Positions 141 to 12,799 of a DNA stretch of 12,866 nt are shown here, one piece after another. The translations under genes and the position numbers were made by a program. Under the pieces are notes generated by a model. That model was not told the origin of the DNA. It worked only from the letters and a program-made list of their open reading frames with translations, and searched no databases. Within the stretch, counting starts at the first letter, position 1, and every line of letters starts with the position of its first letter. The stretch is taken from assembly GCA_951406725.2 (NCBI GenBank), contig CATOCA020000054.1, positions 1 through 12,866 of the forward strand, in the 5' to 3' direction. The DNA comes from Octopus vulgaris (lineage: Eukaryota).

Positions 141-976
<836 letters not shown>

Positions 977-2817
977 CCGGTTCCGTTTTCCGCAGAGAAA
1001 GACGCATTATTGCCTTTGCTCTGTGAAAAAGTTTGCATAGAAACGGCGAAATAACCCACTGTAGTTGCAAAACGTAAAACTCTAAGTCATAGAGATCACT
1101 ACAACACTTTGGTTAAAAATATTTTTAAAAATATATATATAAATATATACATATACACAGTAATTTTCATTTTCGCCGAAACGCACATGGTGCAAAAATA
1201 ACTGAATCAAGTTATCTCCTGCAAGAAAGAAAAAAGAAGCATCTCTCCTGAAAAAAATCCCGTAAACCAAAAAAAAAATAATCCAGACCACATTGTTGGA
1301 TTAAGTATCAATTTCATCTATTTCATATTTTATTTATTATTCTATTTTATCTTTCACTTAGGCCCACATCTTAGTTAAAGTTGCGATCGTCATTTTGTTT
1401 GTTTACATTTTCAATATCTGTTCTCGATATAATAATTTTCCAGATACTCTATCTTCTAATTAGCCTTAAGATTAAATTAAATAACGTTTAATATTGATAC
1501 CGTCAAATTAGCCTTAGGATTAAATTAAATAACGTTTAATATTGTTTAATATTGTTAATAATTATTGTTAATTAGCCTTAAGATTAAATTAAATAACGTT
1601 TAATATTGTTTTAATATTGTTAATAATCTTTCAGATACTCTATCTTCTAATTAGCCTTAAGATTAAATTAAATAACGTTTAATATTGATACCGTCAAATT
1701 AGCCTTAGGATTAAATTAAATAACGTTTAATATTGTTTAATATTGTTAATAATTATTGTTAATTAGCCTTAAGATTAAATTAAATAACGTTTAATATTGT
1801 TTAATATTGTTAATAATTATTGTTAATTAGCCTTAAGATTAAATTAAATAACGTTTAATATTAATAACGTTTAATATTGTTTAATATTGTTAATAATTAC
1901 TGTTAATTAGCCTTAAGATTAAATTAAATAACGTTTAATATTGTTAATAATTATTGTTAATTAGCCTTAGGATTAAATTAAATAACGTTTAATATTGTTT
2001 AATATTGTTAATAATTATTGTTAATTAGCCTTAAGATTAAATTAAATAACGTTTAATATTGTTAATAATTCTTCAGATACTCTATCTTCTAATTAGCCTT
2101 AAGATTAAATTAAATAACGTTTAATATTACCCACACTCTAATATAATATTTACATTGCTAATATATTTTCAGATACTCTATCTCCTGATTAGCCTTAAGA
2201 TTAACTAACGTTTTTATCCACACTCTAATATAATATTAATATTGCTAATATATTTTCAGATACTCTATCTTCTAATTAGCCTTAAGATTAAATTAAATAA
2301 CGTTTAATATTACCCACACTCTAATATAATATTAATATTGCTAATATATTTTCAGATACTCTGTCTTCTAATTAGCCTTAAGATTAAATTAAATAACGTT
2401 TAATATTACCCACACTCTAATATAATATTAATATTGCTAATATATTTTCAGATACTCTATCTCCAAATTAGCCTTAAGATTAAATAACGTTTTTTTTTTT
2501 TTTACCCACACTCTAATATAATATTAATATTGCTAATATATTTTCAGATACTCTATCTCCTAATTAGCCTTAAGATTAAACAACGTTTTTATCCACACTC
2601 TAACATAATATTAATATTGCTAATACATTTTCAGATACTCTATCCCCTAATTAGCCTTAAGATTAAATAACGTTTTTACCCAAATAACGTTTTTACACAA
2701 ACTTTAATATTGTTAATATTTCTTTTTCAAGTACTCTATCTTCTAATTAGTCTTAATATCTTCCTGTCTTCTCTCGAACATAATTAGATAGATAAACGGA
2801 TAGACGGATTATCCAGC
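977..2817 (+). promoter_or_regulatory. Putative 5' UTR / internal promoter of the LINE
   Basis: Lies between the TA flank and the ORF start (CCAGC-ATG, A at -3). I found only one + strand ATG (1187, 4-codon uORF MVQK*). It contains 5' stem-loops and a monomer array. Promoter function is inferred. Confidence 0.6.
1440..2758. repeat. AT-rich tandem monomer array, core TTAGCCTTA(A/G)GATTAA..AACGTTT, 17 copies plus 1 degenerate
   Basis: Core starts at 1460, 1508, 1572, 1651, 1699, 1763, 1827, 1907, 1961, 2025, 2093, 2189, 2276, 2372, 2468, 2564, 2651 and, degenerate, 2747. The 5' half has 48-80 bp units; the 3' half has 87/96 bp units carrying CCACACTCTAATATAATATT...TTCAGATACTCTATCT. Confidence 0.95.
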
Positions 2818-5800
2818 ATGTCCAGAGCATGGAGACGTGACGAGCTGGATTTATTCGTACGAGCATGGGAGTGCGCCGGCGGAGATAGCCCTAGGGAGGT
2901 GATTGCGGCTGCGCTGAAGAGCAGAGGCTACAAGAGGACAGCGGCTCAGATGGAGCGAAAGAGACAGGAATTCGTGCGCTCATATGCTCTTGTACGGTCG
3001 CACATTGGCGCACTTGATGCCATCTTTGAGAACGAGCGGGGCAAAGATGGCAAGAATGGAGACGATGAAAGAAGTCACCCCCACCTGGTGGACGCCCGGG
3101 AGGAGGTTTTGAATGAGAAACCTGCCCGGGAAGTGAACCCAGGTGCAAGTTCTCCAACCGGCAGCAAAGGCCATGGAGACGGAGAACCCGGTGAAGAGGT
3201 AGAGGGAGGAAGAAGAACTAAAAGAAGGACTGGAAGAGCTAAAGGAAAAGAAAAAGCTCAAGCAGGACCAAAGAGTGAAACAACCAGAAATAGAAGTGGA
3301 ACCGCAAAGGATGGAACCAAACAGCGCACACGGGTGTGTAGGTTCTACCTGAGAGGTTCCTGCTGGCATGGAAAGGAAGGTGCAGGCTGCCGCTTTGCAC
3401 ATCGGGGACCCTGCCACAGAGACACGAGGCAGATGGACAAACCATCAACACAAAGAAAAAGGGATGGACCACGCACCACCTGCCCCAAAGCGGAGGTACG
3501 CAGATGTTGTGCGCGTCACAAACAAGCCAACATGATGTTGTCGAAAGAGCAGCTGCTGAGCAACAATCTTTTTGTGCATGGCACAAAAGATTGTACAGCA
3601 GCTGACCTGGCTTCATCAAACCCAAGCCCGCAGGTGGGACTACCCACTATATACCAGACCACCACAGCAAACAGACACAGGATGGACACCGCCGGCAACA
3701 ACGTACACCTCACCTCGATACTCCTACTGAACATCAGAGGACTGCAAACACTCAGTAACAGGACAAAGATCCCGTTCCTGAGAGACTTTGTTGCATGCAA
3801 TCAAGCCATATGCATAGCACTTACAGAAACGCACCTGAAACCGGACATATCAGATGCGGAGTTACACATACCACAGTATGCTGTACTACGGACCGACAGG
3901 AAAAGAAAGGAGTCATGGATGTGTTGCTATGTACATCCGTGAGGACCTCACACCCCAGGTCCTCTTGTCATACTCAAACTCGGTGTGTGACACACTAATT
4001 GTACATATTAGGCAACTTGATGTAGTTGTGTGTGCTACATATCGCCCTCCAGATGCCCCAAGCCATGTGGGCAAGTTGAAGACTGCCTTATAAAAATAGA
4101 AGAAATTCTAACCACATTAGAACAACACATAGGTGTGCTTCTTATGGGAGACTTCAATCTGCCCAATGTCAGATGGCCCGAGGGCCTTTCTCTCCCAGGA
4201 ATGACAAGATGTGAACGAGGACAGGCGAGGTCCCTCCTGAACCTCATCAACACCCTGTACATGGAGCAGGTAATACTCCAACCAACCAGGGCAGGTAACA
4301 CACTGGATCTCTGCTTCACAAATGACATGGATCTCATCCATAATGTGAAAGTGACACCGACACTACTCTCGGATCACAACATGATAGAGCTGACCATGTA
4401 CGGGCCAAAAGAGAGCACGGACATGCAGCCTACAAGAAACCCTCAAAATCTTTCCAGCTTGAACTACCATAAGGCAAACTGGAAACAAATTGAGAAAGAG
4501 ATCCTCAAACAAAACTGGCCTAAATGTCTCTCCTCGCCAGACATCGACGTGAAACTTCAACAATTCATGTCTGTAATGCAAGCCATATGCTACAAATGTG
4601 TCCCAGAGAGAAAGGCCACTGTACACAAGAACAAAATCCCCAGAGAGAGGAAAATTTTAATGAGACGGCGTACGAAATTTTCAAATCGCCTAAACAAACA
4701 GATTGAAAGCAGTGAAAAGTCCCGCCTAAAAATAAAACTGTTGGAAATCGAAAAATGTCTGCAACTCTCCCATGAAAAAGAAAGAGCAGACAAAGAAGCC
4801 TGGAGCTATAGAAAACATAAAATCTAACCCCAGAGCTTTCTACAGGTATGCCAAAGAAACAGCTACAGTGCACTGTAGAATAGGGCCACTCCTCGAAAAG
4901 GATGGCACACTTACAGGAAAACCAATGAGGGTAAGTGAAATACTGAATGAGCAATTCAAGAGTGTTTTCACTCCACCCCTTGGGCATCTCCAAATCACCA
5001 ATCCAACTGACTTTTTTACCACTGCAGATATAAAATCAGAGGCGGCGACGATAGATTACATCGATATAAAGGAAGACGATGTAACCAAGGCTATAGATGA
5101 AATGAAAACAGACTCAGCTACTGGCCCCGATGGATTCCGGCAATCCTCCTAAAAGCATGTAAGAGAGTCCTAGCAAGACCACTGCAGTTCCTCTTTCAGA
5201 GCTTCCTTGCAGCTGGCAAACTTCCAGGAAAACTGAAGGAAGGTAAAATATGCCCCATTCATAAAGGAGGTAGCAGAGCGGAAGCCAAGAACTATAGACC
5301 TATCTCTCTGACCTCACACATCAGCAAGGTCATGGAACGAATAGTCAGAAGGAAGCTGATCACCTTCCTTGAAGAGAATGACTTGCTGCCCGACACCCAA
5401 CATGGTTTCCGACCAGGGAGAAGCTGTTTAACTCAGCTCCTACAACACTATGACTGGGTGCTGAAACGGCTGCTCAACCACTCAAATGTGGAAGTGATAT
5501 ATCTCGACTTTGCAAAGGCCTTTGATAAAGTCGATCATGGAATGATATGTCACAAACTGCGTGATCTCAACATAGTTGGAAAACTGGGAGAATGGCTTCA
5601 TGACTTTCTGAAGGATAGAAGTCAGGTGGTAGTAGCCAATGGGGCCACCTCCATTAACACACAAATAGTGAGCGGTGTTCCGCAGGGCACTGTTCTGGGA
5701 CCACTACTGTTCATAATGGCCCTCTCAGACATGCCCTCAGCCACGCAGAGAGCCACGATCACAAGTTATGCAGATGATACAAAAGTTTCACAGGCAATAC

Positions 5801-6678
5801 AGAACCCTGAGGACACTAAACACCTGCAATGTGAGCTGGACGAAATATACAAGTGGGCTGAAAAGAATAGCATGCAGTTCAATGCTGGAAAGTTTCAAGC
5901 TTTATACTATCAGCATGCAAAACTGAATGCAATACCCAATGAATACACTGGACCCGGAGGGATTGCAATCCCAGAGGCACAATCAGTGCGTGACCTGGGT
6001 ATTCACATGAGTGATGACGCGACCTTTCATGTACATGTTGCTAAACTGACAATGAAATGTAGACGGCTGGCTGGATGGATTCTTAGAACCTTTAGAACAA
6101 GAGAACAAGAAACCATGATGGTCCTCTGGAAGACACTTGTCCTAAGCCACTTTGACTATTGCTCTCAGCTATGGTCACCATCCAGTGTCAAGTTGATCAC
6201 AGAACTTGAGGCGATCCAACGAAGCTACACAAAGAAGATAGCCTCTATGCAGAATGTAAGCTACTGGGAAAGACTCAAGAGATTAAAATTATATTCCCTG
6301 GAGCGTAGGCGGGAAAGATATGCCATAATATACATCTGGAAGATCCTGGAGGGAAGTGTCCTGAACTTTGGCATCGAGAGTTACGCAAATGCCAGAACTG
6401 GGCGCCACTGCGTGGTGCCTAGGACTCCAAACCTGCCATCAAGATGTAGGACAAGATTCTGTGATAGCCTGGGCTTCCGAGGCCCACAGCTCTTCAATAT
6501 CCTCCCGAAGAACCTGAGAGACCTGCATGGGGTGGATACAGATGTCTTTAAAATGAAGCTGGATCTCTTCCTGTCAGGTGTCCCAGATGAACCAACTTCA
6601 CGGCAGGAGGGGCAGATGAGGGCAGCTGCATCGAACTCTCTCATGCACCAAATAGCAGTTGCTAGAAAGCCTCCATGA
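2818..6678 (+). CDS. LINE polyprotein (Myb/SANT-like, CCCH zinc finger, AP endonuclease, reverse transcriptase); 1286 aa when four 1-bp frameshifts are corrected
   Basis: ORF pieces 2818-3942, 3854-4093, 4030-4827, 4772-5152 and 5332-6678 join by +1 (~3901-3904), -1 (~4076), +1 (~4804) and -1 (~5137) indels. The joins read [20 protein letters not shown](F)[25 protein letters not shown] and GPDGF(P)AILLKACK...[19 protein letters not shown]. No in-frame stops remain after correction. Confidence 0.88.
2827..3003 (+). other. Myb/SANT-like (trihelix, Myb_DNA-bind_4-like) domain
   Basis: [13 protein letters not shown]...[30 protein letters not shown] follows the trihelix pattern W-x3-E-x2-L-x4-W ... 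IA-x2-L-x3-GY-x-RT-x2-Q-x3-K-x3-hydrophobic-x3-Y. It is divergent, lacking the helix-2 Trp and the QC..KW residues. Recognised by eye, no HMM run. Confidence 0.62.
3337..3402 (+). other. CCCH-type zinc finger (C-x7-C-x8-C-x3-H)
   Basis: [22 protein letters not shown], with the typical C-x-F-Y start and C-x-F-x-H end. It follows a Lys/Arg/Gly-rich low-complexity linker. Confidence 0.8.
3715..4395 (+). other. Apurinic/apyrimidinic-like endonuclease (EEP fold) domain
   Basis: Motifs in order: [46 protein letters not shown] (4369-4377). The catalytic N, E, Y, D, N, D and H residues are all present. Confidence 0.93.
5110..6010 (+). other. Non-LTR reverse transcriptase domain
   Basis: [62 protein letters not shown] (5767-5778), RDLGI. 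The downstream YCSQLWSP and [11 protein letters not shown] are typical of CR1-group C-termini. Confidence 0.97.
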
Positions 6679-6703
6679 AGTGAAACCAAGTAGCAACACC
6701 AAA

Positions 6704-6739
6704 TGGCGGTGCCCCAGCATGGCCACAGCTCATAAGCTG
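6704..6739 (+). other. 3' UTR tandem stem-loops (putative RT recognition element)
   Basis: TGGC-G-GTGC-CCCA-GCAT-G-GCCA (6704-6725), immediately followed by CAGCT-CATA-AGCTG (6726-6739), 7 nt upstream of the tail. Confidence 0.6.
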
Positions 6740-6746
6740 AAACTAG

Positions 6747-6761
6747 AATCAATCAATCAAT

Positions 6762-6762
<1 letters not shown>
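6747..6762 (+). repeat. (AATC)4 3' tail of the LINE
   Basis: AATCAATCAATCAATC starts 69 bp after the stop codon and abuts the TA array. Short tandem-repeat tails are typical of CR1/L2/RTE elements. Confidence 0.88.

Positions 6763-12774
<6,012 letters not shown>

Positions 12775-12798
<24 letters not shown>
12775..12798. repeat. (AG)12 microsatellite closing the compound array
   Basis: AGAGAG... directly follows the TA array and precedes unique sequence. Confidence 0.95.

Positions 12799-12799
<1 letters not shown>

What the first reader, a model, noticed from the sequence alone, without database searches (positions are those of the whole stretch)
965..6774. Possible (TA)n-microsatellite-targeting LINE with a candidate target-site duplication
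Seen: both ends abut TA repeat. The 12 bp before the 5' end (ATATATGTATAT, 965-976) match the 12 bp after the tail (ATACATGTATAT, 6763-6774) at 11/12, with ATGTATAT identical. G interruptions are rare in the right array but one sits exactly here. Known: microsatellite-specific non-LTR elements exist (Waldo/Mino at (AC)n, Kibi (TC)n, Koshi (TTC)n, Dong (TAA)n) in the R1, Tx1 and R4 clades, while CR1-group elements are generally non-specific. Inference: a TA-specific CR1-group family using microsatellites as a safe harbour. This rests on one copy, and a TSD in low-complexity DNA is weak evidence.
Basis: partly seen in the sequence, partly recalled or inferred. Interest (0 to 1): 0.75.

Follow-up and report, generated by a model that had tools for sequence, protein, structure and literature searches.

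The report
Octopod CR1 LINE inside TA repeat
A broken, near-full-length copy of a high-copy LINE retrotransposon, likely from an octopus-type genome, sits between two long TA repeats, most likely because such repeats are common landing places in these genomes; that the family actively targets TA repeats remains untested.

Summary
In detail: a 5.8-kb element (977-6762) lies between a 0.8-kb and a 6-kb (TA)n array, and the two 12-mers match 11/12. It is an APE-RT LINE of the CR1 group with a Myb-like + CCCH ORF1, a minisatellite 5' region, an (AATC)4 tail and frameshifts. Its nearest named relatives are Argonauta hians proteins (63%). Public contigs show a high-copy family with a steep 5'-truncation gradient. 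The TSD is weak: any 12-mer matches within one mismatch in 64-86% of random cut pairs; the shared G has P about 0.01-0.5 depending on the null. TA-specificity is not shown. Simple repeats cover 7.45% of the Octopus vulgaris genome, so 1,000-3,000 CR1 copies would sit in them by chance, and two sister-lineage loci have non-TA 3' flanks. Contig data cut both ways: 5 of 12 displayed joints put a TA run just upstream of a truncated copy, but three displayed loose ends are non-TA and 1,207 rows were hidden. Verdict: an ordinary, probably non-specific CR1-group insertion. A TA-preferring family stays open at about 25%, and one assembly-wide flank count would settle it.

The parts
142..976 (.). Left (TA)n array with G-type interruptions (46 G, 1 C)
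965..976 (+). Candidate target-site duplication, left copy (weak)
977..1429 (+). Presumed 5' end / 5' UTR of the element (31% GC); sharing between copies not tested
   Evidence: sequence; membership inferred
1430..2760 (+). AT-rich minisatellite (units of about 64-96 nt, 20% GC) in the presumed 5' UTR; its last degenerate unit (2722-2760) runs into sequence covered in other copies
   Evidence: depth in bin 2720-2855
2818..3570 (+). ORF1: Myb/SANT-like helix-turn-helix domain (residues about 1-76), low-complexity linker and one CCCH zinc finger (3337-3402). In frame with the APE in this copy; probably a separate, overlapping ORF in other copies
   Evidence: Pfam Myb_DNA-bind_4 E=0.014 and Torus E=7.5e-5, both below curated cut-offs; model pLDDT 75; MYB/SANT top folds; indels at 3456, 3524 and 3568 in other copies
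3574..6678 (+). ORF2: APE endonuclease (about 3718-4390) and reverse transcriptase (Pfam RVT_1 at 5257-6003, YADD motif); stop at 6676-6678; frame broken near 3901, 4075, 4804 and 5136
6679..6746 (+). Short 3' UTR; two small hairpins predicted, not significant (z=-1.36)
6747..6762 (+). (AATC)4 tandem-repeat tail
6763..6774 (+). Candidate target-site duplication, right copy (11/12; 6763-6772 is a perfect 10-bp palindrome)
6763..12775 (.). Right (TA)n array, 6 kb; C-type interruptions near the element, nearly pure in the middle, grading into (AG)n at 12775-12799

Best explanation
This is a frameshifted, near-full-length copy of a high-copy CR1-group LINE, likely from an octopod, that probably inserted by ordinary target-primed reverse transcription without strict sequence targeting and likely landed and stayed in a (TA)n array because such arrays are abundant, neutral sites in these genomes. 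Shown: the APE-RT anatomy, the tandem-repeat tail, the 5'-truncation gradient across many copies, and TA on both sides of this copy. From established knowledge of APE-type LINEs: the APE nicks the target, the RT primes on the freed 3' end using the RNA tail, and most copies end up 5'-truncated. Inferred: no strict target specificity; the 12-mer is at best a short TSD since eroded by slippage; the arrays may have lengthened after insertion; a mild excess in TA from survival bias or breakage is possible.
For: (1) Background is high. In O. vulgaris simple repeats cover 7.45% of the genome and CR1 covers 62.2 Mb in 169 families (PMC13282606 supplement). That predicts about 1,200-3,100 CR1 copies inside simple repeats by chance at a 1.5-4 kb mean length. 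In the squid D. pealeii over 10% of the genome is (AT)n (PMC9068888). (2) The family is abundant. 24,824 and 13,444 contigs were laid from two runs, with depth rising 22-fold and 66-fold from 5' to 3', roughly thousands to tens of thousands of copies; the tool warns that depth is no copy number. (3) Three displayed loose ends that leave the element for 20+ letters (3306, 3535, 3612) are not TA (table 7). (4) Strict targeting should give one TA-to-element joint per truncated copy, but holds only 106 joint rows in all against 1,220 loose-end rows. (5) The only two loci of the same wider clade whose 3' ends are visible (L002, L082) have non-TA flanks. A distant CR1 family shows no TA run next to any of 10 aligned copies, although 8 of its 11 loci contain TA arrays elsewhere. 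(6) Sequence-specific APE elements are reported from the Tx1 and R1 clades (PMC4640811, passages). (7) The TSD is weak.
Against: In one search, 5 of the 12 displayed joints with letters between (37 in all) run from the TA end of the reference into element positions 4036, 6605, 6704, 6708 and 6709, so a TA run lies just upstream of a truncated copy. The 4036 joint lands on a TA-like 7-mer and has about 8 times single-copy depth. Depth in the last bin, 18% of which is TA flank, does not drop. No 3'-end loose-end row is among the 13 shown. Only 4-6% of laid contigs are partial, and the share running on into unlike sequence is given as 0. The G at 6769 has P about 0.01-0.06 under nulls drawn from the right array. 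TA-rich contigs may be removed by the human-likeness filter, which would hide TA junctions. The 3306 and 3612 loose ends could be subfamily variants or recombinants rather than host flanks.
Confidence: 0.5

Rival explanations
1. Soft preference: the family is enriched several-fold in (TA)n without being strict. The APE may favour TpA steps or extruded TA hairpins, or host breaks at cruciform-forming TA arrays may capture the cDNA, with 5' junctions completed by microhomology to TA.
For: TA-to-element joints (5 of 12 shown), one at a TA-like internal 7-mer with about 8 times single-copy depth. This copy sits at the switch between G-type and C-type interruptions, i.e. near the centre of a quasi-palindromic array. 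AT/TA repeats form cruciforms cut by Mus81 in yeast (PMC12972899, abstract). Drosophila Waldo-A/B accumulate near CA repeats without strict targeting (PMC3812793, passage).
Against: The fraction of TA junctions cannot be read; it could be under 10% of about 1,000 partial contigs, i.e. background. No clear mirrored copy of the interruptions around the junction: best 10 of 46 coincidences, at an offset of 115 nt, reached by 22 of 500 shuffles.
Confidence: 0.27
2. Strict (TA)n-specific CR1-group family: the APE, possibly helped by the ORF1 Myb-like domain, recognises TA repeats and makes a TSD of about 12 bp.
For: TA on both sides; shared G at the same register; undiminished depth over the TA flank and no 3' loose-end row among those shown; a Myb-like fold in ORF1 is supported.
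Against: Non-TA loose ends; only 106 joint rows where thousands are expected; sister-lineage loci with non-TA flanks; no CR1 precedent in the passages read. A Myb fold shows no TA specificity, and it lies in ORF1 rather than in the endonuclease.
Confidence: 0.13
3. The arrays largely postdate the insertion: the element landed at a short AT-rich or TA site and the arrays grew by slippage on each side, the right one possibly seeded next to the (AATC)n tail.
For: Opposite interruption polarity (left ATGTA context in 45 of 46, right TACAT in 47 of 56) suggests independent growth of the two arrays. In maize, short TA targets are reported to expand on both sides of TAFTA elements after insertion (PMC5907723, passage).
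Against: The tail unit AATC is not a rotation of TA or ATAC, and tail seeding cannot explain the left array.
Confidence: 0.1

Closest known systems
CR1-group LINEs of octopods (O. vulgaris: 169 CR1 families, 13 recently active with 787 insertions; PMC13282606)
   Same: APE-RT ORF2; high copy number; nearest named RT relatives are Argonauta hians proteins at 63%, in a clade with support 1.0. The recently active O. vulgaris CR1 insertions average about 4.1 kb, close to the ORF-bearing part here.
   Different: Identity with any of those families could not be checked because the consensus library is on Zenodo, out of reach. No target preference is mentioned in the two of three text parts read or in the supplement search.
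CR1-Zenon
   Same: CR1-group RT in an invertebrate; Zenon is reported from molluscs and dominates Euprymna.
   Different: Zenon elements are described as lacking ORF1 and ending in poly-A (PMC13343379 section 15). This element has an ORF1 and an (AATC)4 tail.
Microsatellite-targeting non-LTR elements: Waldo (ACAY), Mino (AC), Kibi (TC), Koshi (TTC), Dong (TAA), Togen (TG)
   Same: A non-LTR element inside a microsatellite (PMC3812793, PMC4640811; passages).
   Different: They belong to other clades (the Utopia paper names R1, Tx1 and RLE-encoding clades as the target-specific ones), none listed targets (TA)n, and their specificity rests on many copies. Here it rests on one copy plus ambiguous contig joints.
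TA-microsatellite-targeting DNA transposons (Micron, MuTAnT, SaTar, TAFTA)
   Same: Flanked by (TA)n on both sides.
   Different: They are plant Mutator-like or MITE DNA transposons with TIRs, not RT elements.

Membership tests
CR1-group LINE | ORF2 with N-terminal APE endonuclease and RT | tested here: met
   Exo_endo_phos_2 E=8.5e-13, RVT_1 E=7.6e-31; catalytic motifs present
CR1-group LINE | Short 3' UTR ending in a short tandem-repeat tail; frequent 5' truncation (recalled as typical of CR1) | tested here: met
   68-nt UTR and (AATC)4 tail; depth gradient 22-fold and 66-fold
CR1-group LINE | RT phylogeny groups with reference CR1 elements | tested here: inconclusive
   The tree of 61 fetched RT cores places it in an octopod clade within a wider clade (support 1.0), but no named reference CR1, L2 or Jockey sequence was available. 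The CR1 label rests on domain layout and on recalled motifs.
CR1-Zenon | No ORF1 | tested here: not met
   ORF1 region with Myb-like and CCCH domains at 2818-3570
CR1-Zenon | Poly-A tail | tested here: not met
   (AATC)4 tail
Microsatellite-specific non-LTR retrotransposons | Most independent copies inserted in the same repeat, on both sides | tested here: inconclusive
   5 of 12 displayed letter-between joints are TA-to-element; 3 displayed long loose ends are non-TA; 1,207 loose-end rows and 91 joint rows were not shown. No genome assembly is held.
Microsatellite-specific non-LTR retrotransposons | Fixed cleavage register or TSD within the repeat | tested here: inconclusive
   11/12 match, P 0.012-0.53 depending on the null
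Microsatellite-specific non-LTR retrotransposons | Endonuclease cleaves the target repeat specifically | not testable with these tools
   needs an in vitro nicking assay

The most novel reading that the evidence does not exclude
An abundant octopod CR1-group LINE family, carrying a Myb-like + CCCH ORF1, inserts preferentially into (TA)n arrays. It would be the first (TA)n-targeting LINE and the first microsatellite-targeting CR1-group element found in the searches run here, it would use the unusually large TA fraction of coleoid genomes as a safe harbour, and it might exploit TA cruciforms or breaks.
Probability: 0.25. Interest if true: 0.7.

Novelty: new member of a known kind. Interest (0 to 1): 0.33.

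Why it matters
If ordinary, it is one more CR1-group copy, and a reminder that TA flanks and short TSDs mean little in TA-rich cephalopod genomes. If the family does prefer (TA)n, an APE of the CR1 group would have evolved repeat targeting independently of R1 and Tx1. That would give a test case for how APE specificity arises, tie LINE spread to the large AT-microsatellite fraction of coleoid genomes, and offer a repeat-targeting integration enzyme. The question can be answered cheaply on an existing assembly.

Tried and rejected
No whole genome is held, so copies could not be tabulated. Exact-pattern scans found no copy of the family: the 3' UTR pattern in metagenome contigs and viral contigs, and the 5' end pattern in viral contigs. 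Protein-based scans gave only distant relatives (best segments 25-49% identity): 1 viral locus, 80 metagenome loci kept of 490 confirmed in one sixty-fourth of the collection, and 80 genome loci kept of 382. The two raw-read runs laid (X22, X23) carried only 4 and 18 reads, so their shared species label does not mark the host and they gave nothing. The stretch laid was 2720-6784, so 977-2719 was not compared with other copies. ORF1 homologues: none at E<=0.001 among 446 candidates; no usable Atlas hit for 211 aa; Myb-labelled clusters at 0.79-0.83 for the first 92 aa, lead level only. The exhaustive HMMER job for ORF1 was still queued and gave no result. Fold matches are to MYB/SANT/homeodomain chains but none reaches Foldseek E<=0.001 or Z>=8. 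The idea that the right array is an inverted duplicate of the left was not supported. A single fused ORF as a family trait was rejected as likely private to this copy (indels at 3456, 3524 and 3568 in other copies; two relatives' ORF2 begin near 3574-3577). The 3' UTR fold is not significant. Earlier scan notes: four look-ups empty and one unrelated 3-word chance hit. Literature: searches listed no paper on a (TA)n-targeting LINE or CR1 element; I judged these from listings, and Repbase Reports, subscription papers and the Zenodo consensus library were not searchable.
Full report
Observation. The window holds a (TA)n array at 142-976, unique sequence from 977, an (AATC)4 tail at 6747-6762 and a second (TA)n array at 6763-12775. 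The 12-mers at 965-976 and 6763-6774 match 11/12 as stated, and the G at 6769 is one of only 3 in the first 500 nt of the right array. The match carries little weight. The left 12-mer matches within one mismatch at 2590 of 6002 positions of the right array and recurs exactly 39 times in the left array. In 20,000 random cut pairs, a 12-mer within one mismatch arose in 64-86% of trials. A match of 8 or more bases sharing a G arose in 6% (proximal right array), 1.2% (whole right array) or 53% (an array like the left flank). A real TSD is possible but not shown. The two arrays differ in polarity: left interruptions are G (ATGTA in 45 of 46), proximal right ones are C (TACAT in 47 of 56), which are reverse complements, but their spacings are not a clear mirror image (22 of 500 shuffles do as well).

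Anatomy. 977-1429 is unique sequence. 1430-2760 is an AT-rich minisatellite whose last unit runs into the pre-ORF sequence. An ORF from 2818 encodes a Myb/SANT-like domain and one CCCH finger. The Pfam hits are below cut-off; a single-sequence model of residues 1-92 has pLDDT 75, and its best folds are MYB/SANT domains at Foldseek E 0.27 and Z up to 7.9, which is suggestive rather than strong. APE (E=8.5e-13) and RT (E=7.6e-31) follow, with a stop at 6676-6678. Against an 89%-identical intact relative (P0001) the frame breaks near 3901, 4075, 4804 and 5136, and other copies differ by single-base indels at these places, so this copy is dead or carries consensus errors. Indels at 3456, 3524 and 3568 in other copies, and two relatives whose ORF2 starts near 3574-3577, suggest that ORF1 and ORF2 are normally separate and overlapping. 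That is the layout in the related loci L002 and L083, whose ORF1s carry 3 and 2 CCCH-like fingers. Metcalfe and Casane's ORF1 survey (PMC4120745) has no occurrence of 'Myb' or 'SANT' in its main text or of 'CCCH' in the search listing.

Relatives and host. The nearest named RT relatives are Argonauta hians proteins at 63%. In a tree of 61 RT cores they group with the window at support 1.0, so the host is likely an octopod (inferred). 20 of 24 listed runs, from 10 studies and 9 organism labels, hold 72-92% of the sampled words. The CR1 label is by layout and recalled motifs; no reference sequence was available for the tree. It fails two stated Zenon features, no ORF1 and a poly-A tail (PMC13343379, passages and section 15).

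Other copies. The two raw-read runs gave only 4 and 18 reads. The two contig sets gave 24,824 and 13,444 contigs, with depth rising 22-fold and 66-fold toward the 3' end, the usual truncation gradient. Scaling by single-contig depth (about 60 and 9) suggests thousands to tens of thousands of copies, a rough figure the tool warns against. For TA association: 5 of the 12 displayed joints with letters between (37 in all) lead from the TA end of the reference into positions 4036, 6605, 6704, 6708 and 6709; the 4036 joint lands on a TA-like 7-mer with depth 470; the last bin does not lose depth; no 3' loose-end row is among the 13 shown; and the share running on into unlike sequence is 0. Against: three displayed long loose ends (3306, 3535, 3612) are non-TA; there are only 106 joint rows in all against 1,220 loose-end rows and 1,066 and 799 partly laid contigs, whereas strict targeting would give a joint for each truncated copy. 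If the partial contigs are mostly true junctions, the TA share is under about 10%. If few of them run on 20 letters or more, it could be half or more. 1,207 loose-end rows and 91 joint rows were hidden, and TA-rich contigs may be filtered as human-like. The test is inconclusive.

Controls and background. Of the three fetched loci in the same wider clade (L002, L082, L083), two have visible 3' ends and both have non-TA flanks. A distant CR1 family shows no TA run beside any of 10 copies aligned to an eleventh. In O. vulgaris (PMC13282606; text parts 1-2 of 3 read, supplement searched) simple repeats cover 7.45% and CR1 62.2 Mb, so about 1,200-3,100 CR1 copies would lie in simple repeats of any motif by chance. 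That the window comes from this species is not claimed. In D. pealeii over 10% of the genome is (AT)n (PMC9068888, passages). One TA-embedded copy, picked for being striking, is therefore expected.

Mechanism. Most likely ordinary target-primed reverse transcription by a weakly specific APE, with landing and retention in an abundant neutral repeat (0.5). A soft TA preference through APE bias or capture at cruciform breaks is the main rival (0.27); AT/TA cruciforms are cut by Mus81 in yeast (PMC12972899, abstract). Strict TA specificity is put at 0.13 and post-insertion growth of both arrays at 0.10.

Known systems. Microsatellite-targeting non-LTR elements listed in PMC3812793 (passages) are Waldo, Mino, Kibi, Koshi and Dong; PMC4640811 (passages) adds Togen and names Tx1, R1 and RLE-encoding clades as the target-specific groups. 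TA-targeting elements found in print are plant DNA transposons (PMC4486113, abstract; PMC5907723, passages). PMC10294476 and PMC8967140 (passages) give only mollusc and cephalopod family abundances. Eight searches listed no (TA)n-targeting LINE; Repbase Reports, subscription papers and the O. vulgaris consensus library on Zenodo were out of reach and may already describe this family.

Verdict. The feature is real and is a new or uncatalogued member of a known kind. The targeting claim is unproven: about 25% that young copies strongly prefer (TA)n. Interest 0.33, or 0.7 if the preference is confirmed.

Noticed in passing
window 142-976 vs 6763-7700: The arrays on the two sides have opposite interruption polarity (G-type left, C-type right), so the element sits at the switch point of a quasi-palindromic TA array. 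The spacings are not a clear mirror image.
   Followed up: partly
window 2818-3402: ORF1 pairs a Myb/SANT-like fold with one CCCH finger. No sequence homologue was found, and the combination is not mentioned in the Jockey-superfamily ORF1 survey passages checked.
   Followed up: partly
L002 958-2553; L083 2-1552: ORF1s of related elements carry cysteine-rich PHD-like stretches and 2-3 tandem CCCH-like fingers and overlap ORF2, so CCCH ORF1s may mark this CR1 sub-lineage.
   Followed up: partly
P0001-P0120, C-termini; window 6583-6645: 101 of 120 closest ORF2 relatives end in a PDxP...NS motif after the RT, a possible lineage marker of unknown role.
   Followed up: no
window 1430-2760: A 1.3-kb hierarchical minisatellite (64-, 96- and 191-nt periods) in the presumed 5' UTR; it may act as a tandem internal promoter.
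   Followed up: partly
window 4036: A contig joint with about 8 times single-copy depth links a TA run to this internal TA-like 7-mer: either a recurrent microhomology truncation point or one amplified insertion.
   Followed up: partly
L088-L151 (CBDHHR contigs) and other genome-contig hits: Many contigs filed under bacterial or archaeal MAGs carry animal-type LINEs (11 copies of one CR1 family in one Metamycoplasmataceae MAG), i.e. host contamination of those bins.
   Followed up: no
window 8200-12500: More than 4 kb of almost pure (TA)n; its length may be inflated or uncertain in a long-read consensus.
   Followed up: no
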